DNA of 64,000 nt from Octopus vulgaris (taxonomy: Eukaryota), in contig OX597817.1 in the NCBI GenBank assembly GCA_951406725.2, positions 30,938,001 to 31,002,000 on the forward strand. The letters run 5' to 3'. The notes beneath the pieces are model-generated. The model was not told the DNA's origin. It ran no database searches and saw nothing but the letters and a program-made list of their open reading frames with translations. Shown here piece after piece: positions 5,362 through 61,198 of this stretch. A program made the position numbers and the translations under genes. How positions within the stretch are numbered: position 1 is the first letter of the stretch; the number at the start of each line of letters is the position of its first letter.

Positions 5362-5786
5362 TAATAAATAGAGAATTCCAAACTCATTCCCTATGGATAC
5401 CGTATTTATTACAACGAGTGGCTTGTAAACGTATCTAACGAGCGAAATCGAGTTAGATACGTTTACAAGCCACGAGTTGTAATAAATACGGTATCCATAG
5501 GGAATGAGTTTGGTATTTTATTTATTACACACGAATAAACGACCATATTTTATTAACCCAATAACTAAATTCTTCACGTTTAGTTGTAACTTATGAATGA
5601 CAAAAGTAGCGCCGTCACCGTGACCTCGGGTCATCACCATATATTGACCAATCAGAAGCAGCGCTGTCACCGTGACCTCGGGTCATCACCATGGATTGAC
5701 CAATCAGAAGCAGCGCTCGCAGTATCTGACATATGTTAGATATCAAAAATATCTCAAAGTGTTCTCACTCACATGTGTGTAATAAT
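5362..5786. mobile_element. Non-autonomous foldback element (Crypton-like) with ~165-bp palindrome and 2 x 52-bp direct repeat
   Basis: Arms 5378-5439 and 5452-5513 are near-perfect reverse complements, extending to 5362/5527; 52-bp tandem at 5608/5660 carries TTGACCAATCAGA; right end TGTGTAATAA mirrors TTATTACACA at 5522. Confidence 0.65.
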
Positions 5787-6989: not shown

Positions 6990-8480
6990 TGAACATGATG
7001 TTTAAAAGCTTACCAAAAACTTTTTCTACTGAGGATGCGATTACAGGCATCATAGCAAAAAGCATGAATCATGAACCCAAATTTGGAATGATATTTTCCA
7101 ACTGTAACTGTGTATTTTATTGGGGAGGGGGAAGAAAAACAAGGGTTTATGAATGCAGTTCCTGAAATTCGCTGTCTTTGAAATTTTTTATGATTCGCAT
7201 CAGCATTGTAGACTTTTGAAAATGCCATTCAACCCTTCTTACAGATATTGTCAGAGAAATGACAGAATGCCAGAAACTTGTTTATAGCTTCTAATGGTTT
7301 TGTTAGACCCCACGATGATTTAATCGACAATTAGAAAAAAATGCTATCCGAAATAATGATTTTGCATGTCAGGATCCACAAGGTCAAGTTTTATCATTTG
7401 ATCAGTTCTCAAAAAAGACAATTTCGCTTTCTTTCATTCATTTGCAGATTCATTTCAATTTGTTGTAAGTAGAATATCAAATTGATCTCGCAGTTTCTGC
7501 AAGATTTCGATGAGCTTTTCAATACCAATAGTGCTACTTCCTGTCTGCAATACAATGGTGCTAATGGAAGATATAGTGTTGAACCGGATGAGTGACAAGG
7601 CTATTCATCTCAGCGAGAACATTTATATATTAGCTCCTGAAAATTCACGTCTGACATTCCGTATCAGGTTGCAGAAAATACTATTGGGTAAATGTGATAC
7701 CATTGAGACTTCATACAAATGATTTCACACTATAGACTCTGACAGACTCAGGGTACTTGATACGCGAGAAGTGATTGAAAGCCCGCGAGTGTCAGGATTT
7801 ATCAACTTTTGGACCATAAGTAAATATATTATAGACACGTTTAATAGTTCTGACTAAGATAACTACGCTGTTGAATCTGTACCACACAAATTCAGTATAA
7901 AGCATCTACATGGTGAGAAAATAGCGACATGATTTTAATCAAATATCCTTTGTACTCACTTGTACTTGGATACTATTTGGGAACCATTGTCATATTATTG
8001 ACCCCTGCAAGTCTTCCAAGGAAATTTTCAATGTTTCTTTTATCAGGTTTCCAATCTCAGTACTTGTTTTCTCACAAAAGTCTAGAAAAGTAGATATCTC
8101 TCTTGAATCGTAAACGCACAATCTATACTTTCAAAGTAACATGATAAATGTTGTCTGTTCGACATGTATGGAATCAGGGGTCACATCAACTATTATTGAA
8201 CATATTTTGCCTTCGATCTTTCAGAGATTAACAAGACTGAAGCAAAAAGAAATGATTTCAGTTTGTGATTCAGCTAACAAATAATGTACTTGCAACATAT
8301 TTTTTCTTTTGTTCTGGCTTTCTTTGAATTTCCTGGTATGGGTTTTTAGTACGGTATCCTATTGAGATAAAACTCAACAAGCCTAAGAAGGCTACCAATT
8401 TGAACATTGCAATCAGGTGAGAAGTACCACAGAATGTCAATATTCTTTCAACCTTCACAAAAAAAGTAGCGGTAATTACA
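6990..8480 (-). mobile_element. Decayed hAT-superfamily transposase
   Basis: Minus-strand frames give HYLLAESQTE, IIVDVTPDSIHVEQTTFI, CRGQ*YDNG, AIFSPC, LNLCG and the dimerisation-like PNL...MPVIASSVEKVF; many stops and frameshifts. Confidence 0.8.
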
Positions 8481-26896: not shown

Positions 26897-27170
26897 GTAG
26901 TAGTAGTAGTGTTGCCTGTTATTGTTGTGTATTTTCCTTAATTTGTCAAGGTCGCCTCAAAGCAAATTTGACTAATTCATGCATCGTTTTGAATAAGAAC
27001 AAAAGCGAAAGAGAAACAAATAAAAATAAATAAAAAACAAAAAGCAAAAATATTGTAATCTTGTTTATGTTTGTTTCTACATTGATTTTTTTTTCTTTAC
27101 TTTTTAAAATTCTGTTTTGAATATTTTTTTTTTTTTTTTTTTTTTTTGCATTGTTTCTTCTTTATTGCAG

Positions 27171-27179
27171 TTCAGAGAG
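27171..27179 (+). CDS. Candidate 9-nt microexon (phase 1-1, xQR)
   Basis: Long T tract + TTTATTGCAG | TTCAGAGAG | GTATGA; frame-compatible with the 33969 exon. Confidence 0.4.
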
Positions 27180-27475
27180 GTATGAACATAGTCGTTGTCT
27201 GGGAAAATGTCAATAAATTTACTAATCAGCTTCAGCATACCAACAAAATGTTTCAATTATCCAGATCCTTAGTCAGAGGAAAAGAAATCTTTGCAAAACA
27301 TTTCCATATTAATAATTCCAGTTTTCCAATTCACAAATTTGGAATTAAATGTTGAATTCTGTGAATTGGAGATTTAAATATTGTTGTTAATTTTCTCCTT
27401 CTTCTATCCGTATGTTTATGTGCGTGTGTGTATTACTCTGTCTTTTCTCTTTTCTCTCTTACTATATCGTATTTT

Positions 27476-33968: not shown

Positions 33969-34079
33969 ATCCTGTTACAGCAGGAAAATCTACTTTTCAT
34001 TGCTTGATTAGCATTTTGATTGTGTCTATTACTTTTTGCTATTATATTATATCCAGAATTACATTATTCAATATGTTCT
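33969..34079 (+). CDS. Candidate 111-nt exon encoding a hydrophobic C-terminus (GPI signal or TM-like)
   Basis: AATTTCAG | ... | GTAAGT; only the phase-1 frame is open: (D)PVTAGKSTFHCLISILIVSITFCYYIISRITLFNMF. Confidence 0.4.
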
Positions 34080-37650: not shown

Positions 37651-38044
37651 CATGTGTGTGTGCACGTGTGTGTGTGTGTGTGTGTGCATGTGTGTGTGCA
37701 CGTGTGTGTGCGTGTGTGTTAGTCGTTTCAGATTAAGGACTTAAATTCAGTTTGTAAGTGAGGATATGTGACGGGAGCTTCCATTGGTCAGTTCAGGTCG
37801 CTTGAATTAGTTGATGCAGTAGCGACATCAGATTATCTTATACATGCTAGAATGTGATGAAGGACTCAGTTTAGTTACCTCAGGTGTGTAGGGTTTGGGA
37901 GCTCAGTGGTATTAGAGATGTCAGCTTCTAATGGAGAAGGGACGAGTTCTACATGTGTTGAGGTAGTCTGTCAGATGGTACGGGTAATAATTCAGTTTGC
38001 GTACCATGCACAGCTATCTGATGCCCTCTTGGTAAAGAGAGCAT

Positions 38045-38846
38045 CAGAACCTAGTTCCCACAAAAGCTGTTCGCCGGGAGCTGCAAAAAGCCGGATTTCA
38101 CGGGAGGGCTGCAATCAGAAAACCACTACTTTCAAAAACAAACGTTGCAAAGTGTTTAGTAAAAACCTACAGAATTGGTCCCTAGAGCAGTGGAAGCATG
38201 TTACTTTATCGGACCAGTCAACCTTTACCTTATTTCCGACCACCAGCCGAGTGTACGTCTGGAGACAGCCAAAAGAGGCATTTGACCCAGTCTGCCTTCT
38301 TCCAACTATTAAACATGGAAGAGGATCTATGATGATCTGGGTGGGGGGCTATATCTTGGAAATCCGTTGGCTCAATGGTTTCCCTTCATTGTAGAATTAA
38401 TAGTCAAGACTATTTAAGCATTTTATCTGATCAAATTCATCCTATGTTTGAGGAACTTTTTCCGGAGGGAAACGTACTCTTTCAGGATGATAATGCACCA
38501 ATTCACACGGCTAAAGGTGTTACTGAATAGCGCGAGGAACATTCTAGTTAAGCTGAACATCTTATCGGGCTACCACAGTCCCCAGATCTCAATATTATTG
38601 AACAGTTATGGTGCATTTTAGAAAAACAAGTAAGGAGTCGATATCCTCCACCATCATCACTACAAGAACTGAAGACTGTTTTAGCTGAAGAATGGACAAA
38701 AATTCCTTTGGAAACAATTCAAACTTTGTACGAGTCCATACCTCATAGAATTCAAGCTGTAATTACTGCCAAAAGCGGTCATACCCCATATTAAAATAAA
38801 TTTGTTTGAAATTTTAAGGTGTTTCCATTACTTTGTCCAACCCCTG
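38045..38846 (+). mobile_element. Tc1 (DD34E-type) transposon 3' portion, pseudogenised
   Basis: WKHVTLSDQSTF, VYVWR, KHGRGSMMIW, FQDDNAPIHTAK, QSPDLNIIEQLW, stop at 38794, right TIR ending ...CCAACCCCTG. Confidence 0.9.
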
Positions 38847-40293: not shown

Positions 40294-42117
40294 TGGCGAA
40301 ATAGAATATTAATGCATCTATTCATTCTCCATACATTGCGGTAGATTCAGATGTTAATGTCTGATTGTTGGTTTTCGTCAACGGAGAACACCTTTAGACA
40401 TCTTTAGACAATGTATGTTCAAAACACACGTGATTCACCAGTCTAAGGGGACCTCGAGACACTTCAGTGTTTCGATCTCATTATGTATCTCTTCAATTAA
40501 AGCTACCGCTACTGACGGAAGACGCTAACAAGAGAATAAGTTGTTTATATGAATCAGCAAACAAATTATTTTTCTGATGCATGCTAAAGTCTAGGAAAGA
40601 GATAATAATTTATGTGATGCTCGCAGAACAGTGAGAGTCTAAACAACAACGTATCCATTCTTAATGTCTTCTTGACAAATTCGAAAGTAAATATCTGATC
40701 GCTGTTTTTTGTTAGCGAAAAACATCGCCACCCTCTAGGCGATGTCTGTTTATAACACATGCGTTTCACCGATGTAATAGGACTTCGAGACACAACCAAC
40801 AGCACCATGCACAAGTAGCTTCGGAGTATTTCAATGATATTTGACAGGATATGCTTGTCATGTTGTCTATGATCTCAAATGCCATTTAGCATATCAAATA
40901 CTCTAAGTAGACTATTTTCCAGCTTGTTTGAAGGAATTTTGACACAAATTAGTAGGTTGGAATTCATTCAAGTTTCCTTCGAAATCTTAATCCATAATCT
41001 ATTATTGTGATATTTTAATGTATCTAAAAATTACTATTATGTTAGTGTCAATGTAAAGATTACTAATACAAATGACATGCAGATTTCAACTTTTCAGGAA
41101 TTATAAATCTTTATAAAGCTTTATGATATTTAGTTTCATACCTCTAGATTCTAAGTTCAAATCCTTCTAGATCTGATATTGTTGTTCAATATTTTGTGTT
41201 TAATAACAGAACTACTAGTAATACATTGAACTTTACTTGACTATACTCCTCTGCTACTAGATTTGTAAAATAAAATCGATAATATATGCTAATTGAAATA
41301 CAGAAAACCAATCTATATATTACGAATGAAACCTCTTCATCCAAGAGTAATTGATATATATCTTGCTGTGTACCTTACTTTCTGGCCAGTGACCAAGTTA
41401 TTTAATTCTAATTGCCTAGAAGGGAAATTGCTGCCAGACACATAACGTTATTTTTCACTGGACAGCATATGAAAAGATTTTACATATTGGCTTTCACATC
41501 ATATTACATTGAAAGTGGCGAAAGTAGTATATGATATACTCTGAGCCTTGTAGATTCCGATGTTCGGCTTTATTACCAAGTCCACACACACACACGCACG
41601 CGCATGCATGTATGTATGTATGTACTTAGGTATGAAATCTTTTATTCATCTAAACAATTGCATAAGAAAAAAATCATTGTATATTAAATATTAAGAGAAT
41701 TTCTGTTTGTTGATATTTACCATTTTATCAGTATATATACTAGTTTCCAATATTGGCACACAGTCATCAATTTTGTGGGAGAGTATAGTCGTTTAAATCA
41801 ACTTCGGTACTTAACTTGTAATTCATTTTACTGACATATATGGATGAAAGCAAAATGTTCACAGTTTGAATTTGGACTCAGAATGTAAGAAATTGTAACT
41901 AAATACAGCAAGGTGTTTTGTTTGCTGCATTACCAAATCTGAGAAACCCTTGCCTTAATCTTGGTACATATTAATGTAATGCAACATGATTTGCAAAGCA
42001 CTTGTTTTTCCAAAATAGATGAAAGAGGTGAGTTAATCTGTAGAATTGTTCTCACGTTCTGCACCTTCATTTATTTTGGTAAAAAATTCTTTCTTTCTAT
42101 ATATATATATATATCTG

Positions 42118-42170
<53 letters not shown>

Positions 42171-42174
42171 GTAC

Positions 42175-42370
42175 ATGTGACAGTTATTCGGTAGCCATGA
42201 TAAGACTCAAAGTTTCGGATGCCGGGGTGGAAATCCACGCCGCCATCTCTTCAGTTATCCGGCCATCGGAAAAAATGCTATCAAAATGTTATGAAGAGAT
42301 GGCGGCGTGAATTTCCACCCCGGCATCCGAAACTCGGAGTTTTATCATGGCTACCGAATAATTGTCACAT
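42175..42370. mobile_element. MITE with ~80-bp TIRs (TGT...ACA) beside (TA)n
   Basis: TGTGACAGTTATTCGGTAGCCATGATAA...CGCCATCTCTTCA / TGAAGAGATGGCG...TTATCATGGCTACCGAATAATTGTCACA. Confidence 0.85.
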
Positions 42371-42448
42371 ATTATATTTACAGATAAATTCCTCTATTTA
42401 CATAATATCTAAGTCTCTTTCATTCTTTTGTTGTTTTACCATTTTCAT

Positions 42449-42510
<62 letters not shown>

Positions 42511-42904
42511 ATATATCAGAAGCAATTTTCTTTGATATTGCACAAATTCTATACTATTGTTATCTCTCTACATACATTACATACAAGCATGTAATGTGTG
42601 TGTGTGTGGGGGGGGGGTATAAATTTCGTAGTCAATGGATCGCCTTTCTGCTGAATATTAGGTTATCAACTTATACATGACACAACATAGACACGTTTAC
42701 TAAAACTTTTCAGCAAAACTTGCGCGTAGCTTCAGTAAACAATAATAAACAAAAGGTTGAATAGATGCTGTGAGTGGGTGGTTGCTTTCAACGAGTACAA
42801 ACAGGAAATAAGTTATTTCGTAAGTCTAAAGTGCTACATTTGTTTCAATTGTTGATAACTTCCAAGTAGACCCCAAACCTCACCAAGATTTTAAGCCATT
42901 TTTT

Positions 42905-43425
42905 TTTCATTCTTTTACTTGTTTCCGTCATTTGACTTTGACCACGCTGGAGCACCGCCTTTAGTCGAACAAATCGACCCCACGGAAGTGTAGTTAAGAA
43001 GCTCCATTCGCAGGCACCTGGGGCAAGTGTCTTCTACTATTGCTCTGAACTGAGCAATGCCTTATGAGTTAATTTCGTAGATGGAAACTGTATAGAATTC
43101 TGTCACATATCTGTGTGTGCGTGCGTGCGTGTGTGAGTGCGCGTGCGTGTGTGTGTGAGTGCGCGTGCGTGTGTGTGTGAGTTCGCGTGCGTGTGTGTGC
43201 ATGTATGTGTGTGTGTGCATGTATGTATGCGTGTGTGCATGCGTGTCTTTGCGTTTGTCCCTACGCCGCTTGTTTTTTGGTATTGGCTTGTTTTTGTTTC
43301 CCCAACTTAGTGGTTCGGCAAAAGTGCGAGAAACAAATATTGGTGTCAATTCGTTCGACTTAATCCTTCACGGCAGTACCCCAGTATGGCCACACTCCAA
43401 TGCGTGAAGTAAGTGAAGGTACAAA
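42905..43425. mobile_element. Two diverged SINE B pieces, back to back
   Basis: 42905-42981 is a minus-strand 3' end; 42985-43425 is a plus-strand copy. Confidence 0.65.
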
Positions 43426-43579
43426 AGAATGTCGGTGCACTGTTCTAAATCGATTAATCTTCGCACCAAGTTCATTGCCATTTTATTCCGGCGTACCCAC
43501 CCTCATAGCATGACTCCCCATGTTCCTCACAAAATCGAAGACCATAACCGTTAAGATTTCACGTTGTTTATTCGAAACT

Positions 43580-43965
43580 GGATGGAAGCACTCCGTCGGT
43601 TACGACGATGAGAGTTCCGGTTGATCCGAATCAACGGAACAGCCTGCTCGTGAAATTAACGTGTAAGTGGCTGAGCACTCCACAGACACGTGTACCCTTA
43701 ACGTAGTTCGCGGGGATATTCAGCGTGACACAGAGAGTGACAAGGCCGGCCCTTTGAAATACAGGTACAACAGAAACAGGATGTAAGAGTGAGAGAAAGT
43801 TGTGGTGAAAGGGTACAGCAGGGATCACCACCATCCCTGCCGGAGCCTCATGAAGCTTTTAGGTGTTTTCGCTCAATAAACACTCACTGCGCCCGGTCTG
43901 GGAATCGAAACCGCGATCCTACGACCGCGAGTCTGCTGCCCTAACCACTGGGCCATTGCGCCTCC
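43580..43965 (-). mobile_element. SINE family A, full length
   Basis: TSD TTTATTCGAAACT at 43567-43579 and 43966-43978. Confidence 0.92.
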
Positions 43966-44239
43966 TTTATTCGAAACTATGCTGCAGCAGACCGCAGTAA
44001 TTTTTGAAAACCAAACTTCTTACTAATGTTGACAAAAGACAACAATCTGTATGGCTAAGTATTGTTACCAGATAAATTACAAATTAAAATCATGTTTTCA
44101 GAAAGAATTTTACAGATTTATTTTGTCTTTATATCTCAAAGTGCAACGGTCATTTACAGGGTGCAAAAGGAAAAAAAAAGGGTATCAAAACGTAATACAG
44201 GTAAAAAGCAACAACCTACTCAATTCACACAAACGAAGA

Positions 44240-45446
44240 GATACAACTGACTTAATTTCCTCAGAAGAGTATTCCTACATATTCAGTTGTTAGATATGGA
44301 GACTTTTATTTTGATGTAAGTATATAAGTAATTACGAAGGGATACAACTGACTTAATTTCCTCAGAAGAGTATTCCTACATATTCAGTTGTTAGATATGG
44401 AGACTTTTATTTTGATGTAAATATATAAGTAATTACGAAGGGATACAACTGACTTAATTTCCTCAGAAGAGTATTCCTACATATTCAGTTGTTAGATATG
44501 GAGACTTTTATTTTGATGTAAGTATATAAGTAATTACGAAGGGATACAACTGACTTAATTTCCTCAGAAGAGTATTCCTACATATTCAGTTGTTAGATAT
44601 GGAGACTTTTATTTTGATGTAAGTATATAAGTAATTACGAAGGGATACAACTGACTTAATTTCCTCAGAAGAGTATTCCTACATATTCAGTTGTTAGATA
44701 TGGAGACTTTTATTTTGATGTAAGTATATAAGTAATTACGAAGGGATACAACTGACTTAATTTCCTCAGAAGAGTATTCCTACATATTCAGTTGTTAGAT
44801 ATGGAGACTTTTATTTTGATGTAAGTATATAAGTAATTACGAAGGGATACAACTGACTTAATTTCCTCAGAAGAGTATTCCTACATATTTAGTTGTTAGA
44901 TATGGAGACTTTTATTTTGATGTAAGTATATAAGTAATTACGAAGGGATACAACTGACTTAATTTCCTCAGAAGAGTATTCCTACATATTCAGTTGTTAG
45001 ATATGGAGACTTTTATTTTGATGTAAATATATAAGTAATTACGAAGGGATACCACTGACTTAATTTCCTCAGAAGAGTATTCCTACATATTCAGTTGTTA
45101 GATATGGAGACTTTTATTTTGATGTAAGTATATAAGTAATTACGAAGGGATACAACTGACTTAATTTCCTCAGAAGAGTATTCCTACATATTCAGTTGTT
45201 AGATATGGAGACTTTTATTTTGATGTAAGTATATAAGTAATTACGAAGGGATACAACTGACTTAATTTCCTCAGAAGAGTATTCCTACATATTCAGTTGT
45301 TAGATATGGAGACTTTTATCTTGATGTAAGTATATAAGTAATTACGAAGGGATCCAACTGACTTAATTTCTTTAGAAGAGTATTCCTACATATTCAGTTG
45401 TTAGATATGGAGACTTTTATTTTGATGTAAGTAGATAAGTAATTAC
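44240..45446 (+). repeat. Tandem array, 12 x 101 bp, each unit with exon/intron architecture
   Basis: Units start at 44240+101n; unit = GATACAACTGACTTAATTTCCTCAG | 51 nt | GTAAGTATATAAGTAATTACGAAGG; only about 9 substitutions across the array. Confidence 0.95.
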
Positions 45447-46323
45447 AGATGGGTTCGTAGTTATAGTTAAAAGAGGAACGTAAAGAGAAAGTGGAAGTTT
45501 TCTTTTAGCAGGTACTACTTGAACTAAAATTAAGCAATGGGAAATTAACTTAAATAAGCCAATGAAATATAAAGAAATATCAAATAGCTGAGGGTGAACT
45601 GAATGCAATGGGCAAAAGATTTCTTAATCAATTGACATTTCATTTACAGCTGAAAATAGAAAACAAAATCTAGTATAATTTTCGCACATAATGTCGCACA
45701 AAAAAGACATAATTTCAATAAGTTAAGATTGAATTGGTGAGGATTTATTTCCCATGTTTGAGTAAAAGCTTTCTTTGTTAGTGGAGGATTATGACCACAA
45801 CGGTTTAGCGTAGCTAGTATAAACCGGCTTGAACAGTACACAATAGTTTACATGTGCAAAAATATGGCTATTGAAGGCTTTTGGGCAGCAGTAATTTACA
45901 TAATTTTGAACAAAATTCAACCAAAAGAAATGTTTCCAAAAGGCCCATATAGCATCTTTAAGGTAATATTTGCTTTCACCCTATCTTTAAAATAGGAAAA
46001 TAATAAATGTAAATAAATACATGGATATTAATAATTTTGCGTTATAATATTTATATGCGAGTTAAACAAAGAACTAAGTCTAAACCAAAACAATTCTGTC
46101 CATTTTTAAGAGATTCAATAGAGTGTTTTCCAAGAAGAAATAGATGTAGATGACATAAAAATTACCCGCTGAACAGAATAAAAATTAATTGCAATTTTGC
46201 ATAGAATAAACTGAAAATTTATTCAATTATCATACATACTTTATACAAATTTTCTTTCATTCTCACTCGCTCCATTTTGTATATATATGTGTTTATACAT
46301 ACATGTATATATACATACATATT

Positions 46324-46364
<41 letters not shown>

Positions 46365-46519
46365 GTGTGTACGTGTGTGTGTGTATGTGTGTGTATGCAT
46401 ACATGTAATGTATGTGTATATGTACGTGTGAGTGCCTGTGTGTGTATATGTGTGTATAAAATTTCATATTCAATACAAGGAGAAATAAGTGCTTTTATGA
46501 TATTTTGTTTCACTTTCAG

Positions 46520-46896
46520 GATTTACTGCTTCATTTTGAAAACAGTTGAAGATTCTACGCTTCTTTCAATGAACCAAGCAAAACTAAAATGAATGTGTCT
46601 ACAGGGAAGCACTGCACACATGAAGATAATGTCTTAGATTCTCTGGGAACTTCTATATCACTAGCAGATTTTATTCATTAATTTTGAAAAATATCTTTTT
46701 CTTTCTCATTCTTCTAAATAACTTTGGGGAATCTTGTTCTTTTTTGGGGGTTTCAATATATTTTTTTTTTATTGTTTCTGTTAATTTTAAACCGAGTTGT
46801 AAACATATCTGAATTGTAATATGAAACTATGGAATCAGTTTTTTTATTATCTTTTTTATTAAATTTAGATAATGTGTTTTTTCTTTTAAAAATAAA
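46520..46896 (+). other. Candidate terminal exon / 3' UTR
   Basis: Strong acceptor TATTTTGTTTCACTTTCAG|G; all frames close within 75 nt; U-rich sequence with AATAAA at 46891. Confidence 0.35.
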
Positions 46897-47220
46897 GAGG
46901 AAAGTATATAATAGGAGGAATATTTAGATTTGCTATACAGTTTTGATAATATATATTTATTATTTTCATTTTGTTTTAGATTTAGATTAGAAAATAAACT
47001 TTACAGAAAAATCTATGATTCTGTATTAAAAATTATATGACATATTTCTTTCGCATCGTGTTATGAATCACACATGTAGAAATGATAAAAATAACACAAT
47101 AATAGCAGGCTTGCACTGAGTACCAGGTCTATTTTCTCAATAAAATATAAAACGGGCCGAAAAGTTTATACATACACATGCATATACACACACTCGCACG
47201 CACACACACACACACACATA

Positions 47221-47372
47221 TGGCTGTGTGTGCGAAGCTCGCTTCTCAATCACATAGTTCCGGGTTCATTCCTACTGTGTGGCATTAGGACAAGTGTCTT
47301 CCACTATAGTCTCGGGCCGACCAAAGCCTTGTGAGTGGATTTGGTAGACGGAAACTGAAAGAAGCCAGTCGT
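47221..47372 (+). mobile_element. SINE family B 5' half
   Basis: Family match. Confidence 0.8.
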
Positions 47373-47839
47373 GACAAATTTTATTTTCTATTGTGGTAAA
47401 ACATGACAACTAACCAAAAGATTTGTCGCACAATGACTAAGAAAAATATATTGAAATTAATAAAAAGCCTGACCTATTTGAACCGGTTATCAATTTCAAC
47501 CATCTCAGAAAAACAACCCTTTCTATTTTTCTTTCTTCCTTTTTTCCTTTCTTTTTTCTCGAATATTCTTTTGTTTTGTAAAATTACTTTTCATCTGATG
47601 ACTACAGTCTTTTATAATAATGTAATATTCTCATTCTTTTATTAAAAAGTTACGTATGAAATAGTTGTAAAGATCTGACAACCATGGTATGACTATAAAC
47701 TACATCTGGGAGTGGGACCCTGGGGTCCTGGTTTCAGGGTTTGAGGAGTGTGGAACCACCTATTAGCCACTATTATTCTCAGGTCTGCTCTGGCCCGAAC
47801 TCGTAGCACCTGTAAGGGTCCCAAATATGGTTTAATTAG

Positions 47840-50108
47840 CAAACCCTTCTGCGACTGGGGCGGTGGACCAGTACATTGCAATTGCCGCATTCCCTGCATG
47901 GCGTAAGAGGCGACTAAAAGGGGCGGGTGCGAAGCGACTGGGAATCCACTCCTCATAGTAATTTCATATTCCTAAAAAGGCAACAAGAACACGACAAGGG
48001 GTTGGCTGAAGGATAGCGTCTAATCTCACCTTAGTGCTAGGGTGATGGAATGTGCGTGGGTGTAGCACAAGTGAGGTGAAGAGGAGAGAGATAGGGAGTG
48101 TGATGATGAGGAGAAAGAATGATGTGCTGGCACCGAACGAAACTAAGATGAAAGGTAAAGGAGAGTACCAGTTTGGTGATGTGACTGAACGAGTGTCGGG
48201 CGCGGGAGGGGGAGGGCTCGTGAGGGAATGGCATTGCTGGTGAGTGAGCGTGTGAAGGAGAGTGTGGTGAAGTGGAGAGAAGTGTCTTCTAGGTTAATGT
48301 GGGTAAAGATGAGGTGGGGAGGAGAAATGTGGGTGTTTTTTTTTAGTGCATATGCTCCAAGGAGTGAAATGAGTGAGGAAGAAGTAGAGGAGTTCTGAAG
48401 AGAACTAACAGAGTGTGTGGATAGGCTGGGAGAAAATGGCTATGTGGTGGTGTTGGGTGATTTGAATGCGCGGGTGGGAAATGAGGGAGTAGAAAATGTA
48501 GTAGGAAAATATGGAGTTCCTGGTCGGAATGAGAGTGGAAGGAGTTTGTTGGAAATGTGTATGGAGCAGGAGTTGGTGGCGGAGAATAGTCTTTTTAAAA
48601 AGCGGGAGAAGAATAAGTTCACATGGTGGAGGGTGGAGGTAGGAGGGAGGAACAGCAGTGACTGGGCCTTGATGAATTATGTGTTAATTAATAAGAGAGT
48701 GGTAGGAAGGTTGGAGGATGTGCATGTGATGAGAGGTGAAGATGGAGGAGTGTCAGATCACTTCTTAGTAGAGGGTAAGTTGAAGTTATGTTCAAAATGG
48801 AATGCTAGATGAGTGACAGGGAGGAGAGAGGTTGTGAAGGTGAGTGAACTGGATATGGGAGAGAAGGAGCAGGAGTACGTAGAGAAACTGAGAGGTGAAT
48901 ATGAACAGGTTAAGAAACTCGACTAAAGGCGAAACAAGTAAAAGAGTAAAAGAGAGAGAGGAGATATGCGATGTGGAGGAGGAGTGGGAGGCTTTTAGAG
49001 GAGCAGTAATGAGATTGGCGTTCTGTGGTATGTGATACACGAATGGTTGGAATGGGTGTGAGGAAAGGTAGTGAGTGGTGGAATGAGCAGATAAAGGATA
49101 TAGTGGCAGAGAAGAAAAGGGCCTTTGAAGAGTGGTTGCAGAAATGTGATAGAGAAGCTTAAGATCACTACTGAGAAGTGAAGAGGAGAGTGAAGAGAGT
49201 AGTGAGGGGTGACGAAATGGGAGGTAAGGGAAAGGTTCGGGAAAAAGTTGAGTGAACATTTTGTAAGAAATAAGAAGATATTTTGGAAAGAGGTACAAAG
49301 GTGGTTGGAGGAAGGGAAGAAAGGATGAAGGATGTAAATGAAAATTTGTTGAAAGGAAGTAAGGATGTAGAGAGGAGATGGGCAGAGTATTCTGGTGAGC
49401 TGTTAAATGGGGAGGATGTCAGGGAGGCAAGTATAGTGGCTGTAGGAGCAGGGAAGAGAATGCCAATGGTTGCGGATATGAACTACAGGGCAATTGGAAG
49501 GGAGAAGGTGAGGAAATCCTTGTGGAAGATGGTAAACCGGAAGGCGCCAGGTATAAATGAGGGTACAGTGGAATACGTAAAGAGAGGAGAAGTGACAGTG
49601 ATTTAATGGTTAGTGAGGCTTATGAATGTTCTGGCAGAAACGTTAGCATGCCGGGCGAAATGCTTTGCGGTATTTCGTCTGTCGTTACGTTCTGAGTTCA
49701 AATTCCCCCGAGGTCGACTTTGCCTTTCATCCTCTCGGGGTCGATAAATAAAGTACCAGTTTTGCATTGGGGTCGATGTAATCGACTTAATACCTATGTC
49801 TGTCCTTGTTTGTCCTCTCTGTGTTTAGCCCCTTGTGGGTAGTAAAGAAATGGGTATTTCGTCTGTTGTTACGTTCTGAGTTCAAATTCCGCCGAGGTCG
49901 ACTTTGCCTTTCATCCTCTCGGGGTCGATAAATAAAGTACCAGTTTTGCATTGGGTCGATGTAATCGACTTATTCCCTTTGTCTGTCCTTGTTTGTCCCC
50001 TCTGTGTTTAACCCCTTGTGGGTAGTAAAGATATATATATGGCTGGAAGAGTACAAAAGGACTGGTGTAGTGCCTGTATAGTGCCACTGTTAAACGGGAA
50101 AGGGGATT
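47840..50108 (+). mobile_element. RTE-clade LINE 5' portion (UTR, APE endonuclease, start of RT), pseudogenised
   Basis: SAYAP, VVLGDLNARVG, SDHFLV, KAPG, KDWCSACIVPL; multiple stops; interrupted by a SINE C dimer and a SINE B tail. Confidence 0.9.
49631..50031 (+). mobile_element. Dimeric SINE family C inside the RTE
   Basis: Two ~185-bp tandem units (TATTTCGTCTG at 49671 and 49855). Confidence 0.88.
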
Positions 50109-59016: not shown

Positions 59017-61198
59017 ATATTTGTACAGTCAAATGAATTTTATCTCTGATATAAAGCAGTGGTTAGATATAATGCTGTTCAGGTTGACTAGCTTTTCATC
59101 ACAACCAAATTTCGAAAATACAAATGCAGATGAGTCATTTAACTGTACTCAGTACCCATGGTTAATTACAAATGAAAATTACCTTATCAATTCCGAATTG
59201 TTATTCATGTTTCCAGGGTCATGGTGCAACAATAATATAGCAATGAAACAAATTTGAATCAAGGTTTTAAATATTACTTCGCTTACATTTCACAGCACCA
59301 CACCTTCATGGTTTAATTTTTAAAAAAGTTTTATTCTTAAACATTATTATCTTTCAGCTCTCCTATATTTAAGACTTCAGTTCAATTTCCAAGAACTTGT
59401 GAGATCTATTTTAGCTTCAATGTATTCACTGTGAATTGGAAGATTCCTCAATCTAACAAGCAACATACAAAAATCAATCTCTTAGGAATTGTCTTGATTT
59501 CTGAAACAATTCTTTGTTTTCAAGACATATTGATGTCCATGTGTAGGTGTATAGCTTCGGAAACATTGATAAAGAATGGGAAAGTTATAGAAAGAGATAG
59601 AAAACTTGAAAAGTAGATTGTGAGGAAAATAAGATTAATTGATGAGGGGAAACAGTTGATGGGGAGCAAAAAGAAGAATTGTATATGTGTATGTGTGTGT
59701 GTGTGTCTGTGTCTGTGTCGGTCTGTGAGTGTGTGTGTGTATCTGTGTCTGCGCCTGTGTTTCTGTGTGTGTGTGTGTGTGTACATTTACATATATGTGC
59801 GTGTGTTCATTATTAAGATGGATAGATATACATATTTCTGTATATATGTATGTATGTGGATACACGTACATATATTTCAAGGAGATGTAGATAGACTGAC
59901 TATGCGTCAACAGATTACATAGTTAGGCAGGCAGATAAATAAATATAAATACATAGATTAATTGATTGATAAGTATATAGACAGCTACGTAACGAAATTA
60001 CATCTGCATATATAAAAACTACCTTATCATGCAGCTTGCTTCTTAAGAATCTAATATTGCAATTTATTGAATGTTAGTAAGAAAGAAGTCAATACTGTAG
60101 ATTTTACCAACCATTTCTGCCTTACGGCAGAATGTAAAGTTTGCTTTTGCCTATTTCTATTCAATAATACCAAAGTGGACTTTGCGCAAATATCAATATA
60201 TATCTCGGGAATAACGAAACTGATAAAAATAAATTTCTCAGTGTAATTTTATACTTGATTTGTTCACTTGAGACACATATCCTTTGTTTTGTCCATAGCG
60301 TGTACCGTTTTGAAATCCCTCGACTCCAAAACAGAGAGAAAGGGGAGACGGAGAGCAATAGAATAGAAGAGAGAAAGAATATGTATAAAATAGAAATAAG
60401 TTATAAAAGTGATTTTTAAGCATAAAATGAAATTATTTAAACAACTTGAAAATATTTAAATTAAATGAACGGTAATACAAGCCAAAGTATTGCTTGCTGT
60501 TCTAGGCTCTGATCAAAGATACTTATGATCAAAATCATTCAGAATGTAACCATTCCTTCTTTTTCTGATGTAAAGTGAAATTAGATTACGTTATTGTGTC
60601 CTTATTTTTCAGTCATTGGGATGTAATTTGAGCGATTTGGGAGCTATTTTTCTCAGGTTAATCAAGAGCTCAGAAATCCCCTCGTTGCTGCGAGACCTCT
60701 TGCTTTGCTTGTAATTTCGCGATCTTTGTGTTCAAAAGATATGAGATATACCTTGGAGTGGTTCACTGATGTATTGTATTGGTATTCTTTAAGGAAACGT
60801 TCCTTGAAAAATGAAACGAATATATAAATTTGTATTCATCGGTAGTAATTTGTCTTTCTTAATTATTTGAATTCTTTCGCTAAGAATAGAACTTGCTTCC
60901 ATAAAAGAAACAAAGTTCTACTGATCAAATTAAGTTAACAACAAGGATGAAGGGATATGTAGAAAAGTCGTGTACACTTTTATTCTTCCATTTACAGACT
61001 GTATTTGCAAAGTCTTGTGAGTCTCTTCCTTTCCATCAAATTTTAACAATTAGACATTCAGTAACATAAGCAAGAGCAGCAATAATTATGGGTACAAATG
61101 TAAATTTAACTCCTATATGCAGAGGAAATGTAAGTACTTGTTTCCCTTTCTCGGTGATGTTGAAAGAATTTCACATTAGCAGGGTAGCTGATTTTATA

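What the first reader, a model, noticed from the sequence alone, without database searches (positions are those of the whole stretch)
44240..45446. Tandem array of 12 complete exon cassettes (branch point, acceptor, 51-nt exon, donor, 50-nt mini-intron)
Seen: each 101-bp unit reads AACTGAC-TTAATTTCCTCAG | AAGAGT...TTTTGAT | GTAAGT. That gives a 51-nt, frame-preserving segment (first 44265-44315, last 45376-45426) between consensus splice sites, separated by 50-nt introns. Frame 0 is open in all 12 copies (KSIPTYSVVRYGDFYFD; S>L in unit 7, F>L in unit 11). Units 2 and 8 carry a weakened donor (GTAAAT) and unit 12 a variant acceptor (TTCTTTAG). Established: a donor-to-branch distance below about 50 nt can sterically block splicing of neighbouring exons (alpha-tropomyosin exons 2/3); here the distance is about 36-41 nt. 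Inference: a recently amplified real exon that could act as a nascent mutually exclusive or copy-number-variable exon cluster, rather than an inert minisatellite.
Basis: partly seen in the sequence, partly recalled or inferred. Interest (0 to 1): 0.82.

Follow-up and report, generated by a model that had tools for sequence, protein, structure and literature searches.

The report
Exon-like minisatellite, likely inert repeat
A 101-base stretch that looks like a small exon with both splice signals is copied head-to-tail 12 times in a cephalopod (likely octopus) genome, against likely two copies in one relative and one in another, but no host gene was found and the relative's single copy is two bases longer, so it is likely near-neutral repeat DNA rather than a protein-changing splice switch.

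Summary
The array is real: 12 x 101 bp at 44233-45446, each unit with a branch-like CTGAC, an AG, 51 nt and GTAAGT/GTAAAT. The signal combination is rare by chance (0 of 17,884 window 101-mers).

Short-read contigs show the same head-to-tail junction in organism B (lengths fit two copies) and an unbroken single copy in organism E. It is therefore not an assembly artefact; it likely grew 1 to 2 to 12.

The functional reading is not supported:
- No host gene was found.
- Two frames are open, not one.
- E's segment is 53 nt, so not frame-preserving.
- 10 of 12 copies give the same peptide.
- The steric limit blocks only neighbours: donor k to acceptor k+2 is 151 nt.

Splicing is untested.

Best reading: a whole-exon variant of the lancelet 'mirage' and human F7 repeats, in a weakly constrained transcript, with inert extra copies (0.45). 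A never-spliced pseudo-exon minisatellite is nearly as likely (0.40). Interest is low.

The parts
44233..45446 (+). Tandem array of 12 x 101-bp units plus a 2-nt (AC) microhomology at the ends
   Evidence: TRF; units in register from 44235; microhomology
44265..44315 (+). 51-nt exon-like segment of unit 1 (AG before, GTAAGT after); keeps the native upstream flank
   Evidence: organism A contig ends where unit 1's private base leaves the 31-mer
44316..44365 (+). First of eleven 50-nt chimeric spacers (20 nt from the donor side, 30 nt from the acceptor side); donor-to-branch 36 nt; in-frame stop if retained
45376..45426 (+). 51-nt segment of unit 12; the unit has 4 private differences (others 0-1) and keeps the native downstream flank
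44102..44200 (+). Candidate upstream exon (99 nt; TTCAG before, CAG|GTAAAA after); unverified
   Evidence: one of 2 plus-strand candidates outside the array; no credible protein match
44201..44264 (+). Candidate native 64-nt intron in front of unit 1 (donor-to-branch about 50 nt); unverified
   Evidence: sequence
45497..45511 (+). Candidate downstream acceptors (AG ending 45508 or 45511; 82 or 85 nt after the last donor); unverified
   Evidence: sequence
46500..46519 (+).
   Evidence: sequence; its frame has no homologue; outside the stretch laid

Best explanation
A 101-bp segment holding an exon-like 51-nt cassette with both splice signals is repeated 12 times head-to-tail, likely having grown from one copy by a tandem duplication and later unequal exchange, and it is likely a small exon of a non-coding or weakly constrained plus-strand transcript whose extra copies are predicted to be skipped without changing any protein. 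Shown: the array, the 2-nt microhomology at its ends, the same junction in organism B and an unbroken copy in organism E. Inferred: the order 1 to 2 to 12; that the cassette is a real exon behind a native 64-nt intron; that the 50-nt spacers are too short to splice; and that the spliceosome mostly uses unit 1 (native acceptor context, first donor by scanning as in human F7) and jumps over the rest. This is a whole-exon version of a 'mirage' repeat.
For: Array and microhomology. Organism B contig of 112 nt runs 45363-45446 then returns to 45346 with exactly the consensus-unit differences; it and a 49-nt contig match the lengths predicted for two copies, with depths 52 and 100 against 46-56 for four of the five other contigs laid from that run (the fifth is 23) (depth is only a hint). 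Organism E has one 972-nt contig through the whole unit. The splice-signal combination is rare (0 of 17,884). A second candidate exon ends 64 nt upstream; the rough chance of this is 0.5%, computed after the fact. The donor and 17 spacer bases are identical to consensus in E. The terminal unit is the most diverged, as described for mirages (PMC3087553 passages). Mirages and F7 pseudo-sites normally stay silent. Weak coding constraint: +2 nt in E, no homologue.
Against: No RNA shows that the cassette is spliced, and no host gene is identified. The unit is no better conserved in E (4 substitutions and 1 indel in about 98 nt) than the roughly 95% background implied by shared words. GTAAGT shows no significant plus-strand excess (18 vs 9, p=0.12). 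The branch A at -15 is closer to the AG than usual (own knowledge). A genome holds very many arrays, so a 1-in-10,000 signal match can arise by selection of the example (inference).
Confidence: 0.45

Rival explanations
1. Ordinary neutral minisatellite of intronic or intergenic DNA whose unit happens to contain a pseudo-exon that is never spliced at a meaningful level.
For: No family at its curated cut-off among 448 frames scanned; no homologue in 3 word-seeded searches and no credible one in 1 exhaustive search; frame-breaking +2 nt and background-level divergence in organism E; weaker pseudo-cassettes occur in the window (77 of 17,884 at loose thresholds).
Against: The full signal set is rare (0 of 17,884; 2 of 40,000 shuffles); a second candidate exon sits 64 nt upstream; only 2 of 9 variant sites lie in the 51-nt segment (p=0.085, not significant).
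Confidence: 0.4
2. One reading: a real coding exon whose copies are used variably. The mechanically allowed form would be inclusion of non-adjacent copies (1 to 6 repeats of a 17-residue motif), not strict mutual exclusion.
For: 51 nt is a multiple of three and frame 0 is open in 12 of 12 copies; frame 0 is also open in the upstream 99-nt candidate; adjacent donor-to-branch distance of 36 nt is under the roughly 50-nt threshold (PMC5740500 and PMC7969005 passages); exon-plus-intron repeats are used this way in SmPoMuc (PMC2576457 passages).
Against: Segment is 53 nt in organism E, tolerable only near a protein's end or if the gene is decaying; no host protein found; 10 of 12 copies give identical peptides; non-adjacent joins face no steric bar (151 nt); the steric threshold comes from vertebrates and is untested in cephalopods.
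Confidence: 0.1
3. Assembly artefact, or a dispersed satellite or transposon fragment.
For: Units are nearly identical (mean 0.96 differences per 101 bp among units 2-11); the exact count of 12 was not checked in raw reads.
Against: Head-to-tail junction in organism B short-read contigs; the organism A contig breaks exactly where a multi-copy graph predicts; no other copy in the window; the contigs over the unit's left part in A and E have ordinary depth; no Rfam match in the array.
Confidence: 0.05

Closest known systems
Amphioxus 'mirage' minisatellites (globins BflGb6 and BflGb9, Adh3, troponin C, PGBD5; PMC3087553 and PMC3902484, passages read)
   Same: Head-to-tail copies carrying AG/GT signals, unit length in the same range (10-160 bp), variable copy number, most diverged unit at the edge.
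   Different: Each unit here holds both signals and the whole exon-like segment, whereas the mirages described in the passages duplicate one boundary. Mirages sit in known expressed genes; here no host gene or RNA is shown.
Human F7 intron 7 37-bp VNTR (PMC1557585, abstract read)
   Same: A run of identical donors made by a VNTR; there the pseudo-sites are functional but silent because the most upstream donor is chosen.
   Different: F7 repeats only the donor; here every unit also has a branch motif and acceptor, so skipping to a non-adjacent copy is possible in principle.
Sterically enforced mutually exclusive exons (57 human clusters with donor-to-branch <50 bp, PMC5740500; OGDH exons 4a/4b, PMC7969005; passages read; alpha-tropomyosin case recalled only)
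   Same: Donor-to-branch distance between neighbours is 36 nt.
   Different: Twelve near-identical copies instead of diverged alternatives; the bar covers neighbours only; no coding host gene or validating reads.
Schistosoma mansoni SmPoMuc exon-2 genomic repeats (PMC2576457, passages read)
   Same: A whole small exon with flanking intron is the tandem unit, up to 20 times.
   Different: SmPoMuc units are about 1 kb with spliceable introns and give expressed peptide repeats; here spacers are 50 nt and expression is not shown.

Membership tests
Mirage minisatellite | Minisatellite-like head-to-tail duplication whose units carry AG/GT splice signals | tested here: met
Mirage minisatellite | Unit spans a real exon-intron boundary of an expressed gene | tested here: inconclusive
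   No host gene found; no informative RNA run; signals rarer than chance
Mirage minisatellite | Copy-number instability | tested here: met
   Between organisms: 12 in the window, likely 2 in B, 1 in E. Variation within the species was not tested.
Mirage minisatellite | Edge unit excluded from homogenisation | tested here: met
   Unit 12 has 4 private differences, all others 0-1
Mirage minisatellite | Extra sites do not disturb normal splicing | not testable with these tools
   No RNA contig laid on the unit
Mutually exclusive exon cluster | Neighbouring segments of similar length and sequence in one frame | tested here: met
   (trivially, as near-identical copies)
Mutually exclusive exon cluster | Internal exons of a protein-coding gene with conserved frame | tested here: inconclusive
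   Leans against: 53 nt in organism E; no homologue. A 17-residue peptide is too short for the homology tools.
Mutually exclusive exon cluster | A mechanism that excludes every pair of members (steric, <50 nt donor to branch) | tested here: not met
   36 nt for neighbours but 137, 238 and 339 nt for copies 2, 3 and 4 apart
Mutually exclusive exon cluster | Reads show one member per transcript | not testable with these tools
SmPoMuc-type expressed exon repeats | Spliceable introns between repeated exons | tested here: inconclusive
   Spacers are 50 nt; human introns have a threshold near 65 nt with rare 37-65 nt cases (PMC4463651 abstract); a cephalopod minimum was not found in the listing

The most novel reading that the evidence does not exclude
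A real small exon has been amplified 1 to 2 to 12 times with spacers below the spliceable limit, so transcripts can take only non-adjacent copies: an 'every other exon' array giving 1-6 repeats of a 17-residue motif, and a natural graded experiment on exon definition and minimal intron size in a cephalopod.
Probability: 0.08. Interest if true: 0.7.

Novelty: new variant of a known kind. Interest (0 to 1): 0.25.

Why it matters
If the cassette is spliced, relatives with one, two and twelve copies form a ready series for asking how a spliceosome picks among identical whole exons and how short a cephalopod intron can be, and it would show the first step by which exon clusters arise. If it is not spliced, it is an ordinary minisatellite and a reminder that perfect-looking splice cassettes in repeats need RNA evidence.

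Tried and rejected
RNA: no RNA holder listed. One run guessed to be RNA (X20, share 0.06) laid nothing on 45346-46260; this is no evidence either way. The laid stretch ended at 46260, so the joint to 46520 and the upstream joint at 44200 were not examined.

Host gene search: 444 of the 773 filtered stop-to-stop frames of 36 aa or more, plus 4 sub-frames, were scanned against Pfam. 7 of 448 had a match at E<=0.01, none at the curated cut-off; 3 were transposon domains. Minus-strand frames outside 24-49.6 kb and the shorter plus-strand frames there were not scanned. Word-seeded homologue searches with three candidate exon frames found 0 hits (weak evidence). The exhaustive search with frame 44033-44290 gave 2 hits, both repeat proteins whose scores are summed over repeats; rejected after pairwise comparison. 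ESM Atlas best scores were 0.87 and 0.77, with low recognition.

Other readings: structured RNA rejected (z=+1.28; the 36 Rfam matches in 42000-48000 all lie outside the array and below gathering score). Spliced-leader-type array rejected on anatomy (the unit has an acceptor; own knowledge). Plus-strand donor excess is not significant.

Not available: no whole genome was held, so genome-wide dispersal of the unit was not tested. Earlier-finding look-ups by place, sequence and relatives returned nothing for this locus.

Literature searches (listings only, except papers named as read) listed no paper on this locus or on a sub-110-bp whole-exon array. The library lacks most subscription papers, and no supplements were read.

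Full report
Observation. The array is as described: 44233-45446, period 101, 12.0 copies, 98% matches. Twelve 51-nt segments run from 44265-44315 to 45376-45426, each preceded by CTGAC and a pyrimidine-rich AG and followed by GTAAGT (GTAAAT in units 2 and 8). The amino-acid changes in units 7 and 11 and the variant acceptor of unit 12 are confirmed. There are 9 variant sites in all; units 2-11 differ by 0.96 bases per pair on average and unit 12 has 4 private differences. The ends share a 2-nt microhomology. No other copy lies in the window. Other notes of this scan on the same genome call it octopus (unchecked AI notes), which agrees with my recall of the SINEs in the window.

Chance. I scored donors and acceptors with rough matrices of my own, setting thresholds after the fact to the unit's scores. 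Of 17,884 overlapping 101-mers outside the array, each made into a tandem unit, 0 pass with the branch motif and 8 without it. At looser thresholds 77 pass, 2 of them with a branch motif. Of 40,000 shuffled strands 2 pass. So the cassette is about a 1-in-10,000 event for one array, which is notable but not decisive when picked from a genome full of arrays (inference). The open frame is not evidence: 4,540 of 5,699 random 51-mers have an open frame, and frame 1 is open in 11 of 12 copies as well.

Reality and history. I laid contigs of 4 of the 24 listed runs on 45346-46260, which holds unit 12 and its right flank. In organism B a 112-nt contig covers 45363-45446 and returns to 45346. Its 3 + 1 differences are exactly those of the consensus unit against unit 12, so the same junction exists in another organism. 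That contig and a 49-nt neighbour have the lengths that a two-copy allele predicts at k=31, with depths 52 and 100 against 46-56 for four of the five other contigs laid from that run (the fifth is 23); the tool warns that depth is not copy number, so 'two' is likely, not shown. In organism A a 327-nt contig carrying the left flank ends exactly where the window's own 31-mer graph branches; this run may be the window's source. In organism E one 972-nt contig passes unbroken through the unit, which near-identical tandem copies would not allow. Most of the right flank was not covered in any run, because a filter leaves contigs out. Whether A, B and E are separate species rests on coded labels. The simplest history is one copy, then a duplication at a 2-nt microhomology, then expansion to 12 (inferred).

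Is it a coding exon? In E the ungapped match ends at 45415, and the 30 loose letters that follow match the window again from 45414 at 28 of 30 places (compared by eye). E thus has 2 more bases before the same donor: 53 nt, not a multiple of three, assuming the same acceptor, which I could not see letter by letter. This rests on one contig. Divergence in the unit (4 substitutions and 1 indel in about 98 nt) is like the roughly 95% background implied by shared words. No host gene was found: 7 of 448 scanned frames had a weak Pfam match, none at cut-off; three homologue searches were empty; and the 2 hits of the exhaustive search were repeat artefacts. These blanks are weak for 17-33 residue exons. 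On the other side, one of only 2 plus-strand candidate exons outside the array (44102-44200) ends 64 nt before unit 1, roughly a 0.5% coincidence computed after the fact. That gap reads as a native short intron with about 50 nt from donor to branch. Splicing itself is untested.

Mechanism. Shown by arithmetic: neighbours are separated by 50 nt with 36 nt from donor to branch, but copies two apart by 151 nt with 137 nt. The steric threshold of about 50 nt (PMC5740500 and PMC7969005, passages; vertebrate data) can therefore exclude only neighbours, not enforce one-of-twelve choice. A retained spacer carries stops in all three frames of the 152-nt fused exon. With 10 of 12 copies encoding the same peptide, a one-of-n choice would make almost no diversity. 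If the cassette is an exon, the likeliest outcome is use of unit 1, which keeps the native acceptor context and has the most upstream donor, as in the scanning shown for the F7 VNTR (PMC1557585, abstract). This step is inferred by analogy.

Comparison. The closest kind is the lancelet 'mirage': tandem copies of exon-intron boundaries, unstable in number, with diverged edge units and no reported effect on the mRNA (PMC3087553, PMC3902484, passages). I reached it through earlier notes of this scan, and two unchecked notes report single-boundary cases in this same genome. This array works like a mirage but differs in holding both boundaries; membership is open because the host gene is not shown. 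It fails the cluster-wide exclusion test for mutually exclusive exons. SmPoMuc exon repeats (PMC2576457, passages) show that whole-exon units can be functional, but with units of about 1 kb. PMC2812944 (passages) describes tandem repeats at exon-intron boundaries altering human genes. Eight literature searches listed no report of this locus or of so small a whole-exon array; the library is incomplete and no supplements were read.

Verdict. Observation confirmed; interpretation partly supported. My odds are judgements, not computed results: inert whole-exon mirage in a non-coding or weakly constrained transcript 0.45; never-spliced pseudo-exon minisatellite 0.40; functional coding copy-number or switch cluster 0.10; artefact or dispersed repeat 0.05. 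Interest 0.25.

Noticed in passing
window 33969-34079 (+): 111-nt exon-like segment (TTCAG before, GTAAGT after) with an open, hydrophobic 37-codon frame; no homologue, Pfam or Atlas match.
   Followed up: partly
window 7373-7464 (+): 92-nt exon-like segment with a GTAAGT donor and two open frames; no Pfam match.
   Followed up: partly
window 27140-27352 (+): Very long pyrimidine tract and CAG followed by a 60-codon open frame; no homologue.
   Followed up: partly
window 37726-37759 and 60990-61135 (+): Further TTCAG/TACAG ... GTAAGT pairs (about 22 and 132 nt) that could belong to a spliced non-coding transcript; read by eye.
   Followed up: no
window 45497-45515 (+): Pyrimidine tract, AG, CAG and an immediate GT: tandem acceptors followed by a donor-like dinucleotide just downstream of the array.
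   Followed up: no
window 38036-38791 (+): Decayed Tc1/mariner-type transposase pieces (HTH_Tnp_Tc3_2, DDE_3, both below cut-off).
   Followed up: no
window 48000-49620 (+): G-rich decayed LINE-like stretch with a weak endonuclease match.
   Followed up: no
window 5370-5720: Near-perfect palindrome of about 130 bp followed by a 52-bp tandem repeat with CCAAT boxes; likely transposon-derived (read by eye).
   Followed up: no
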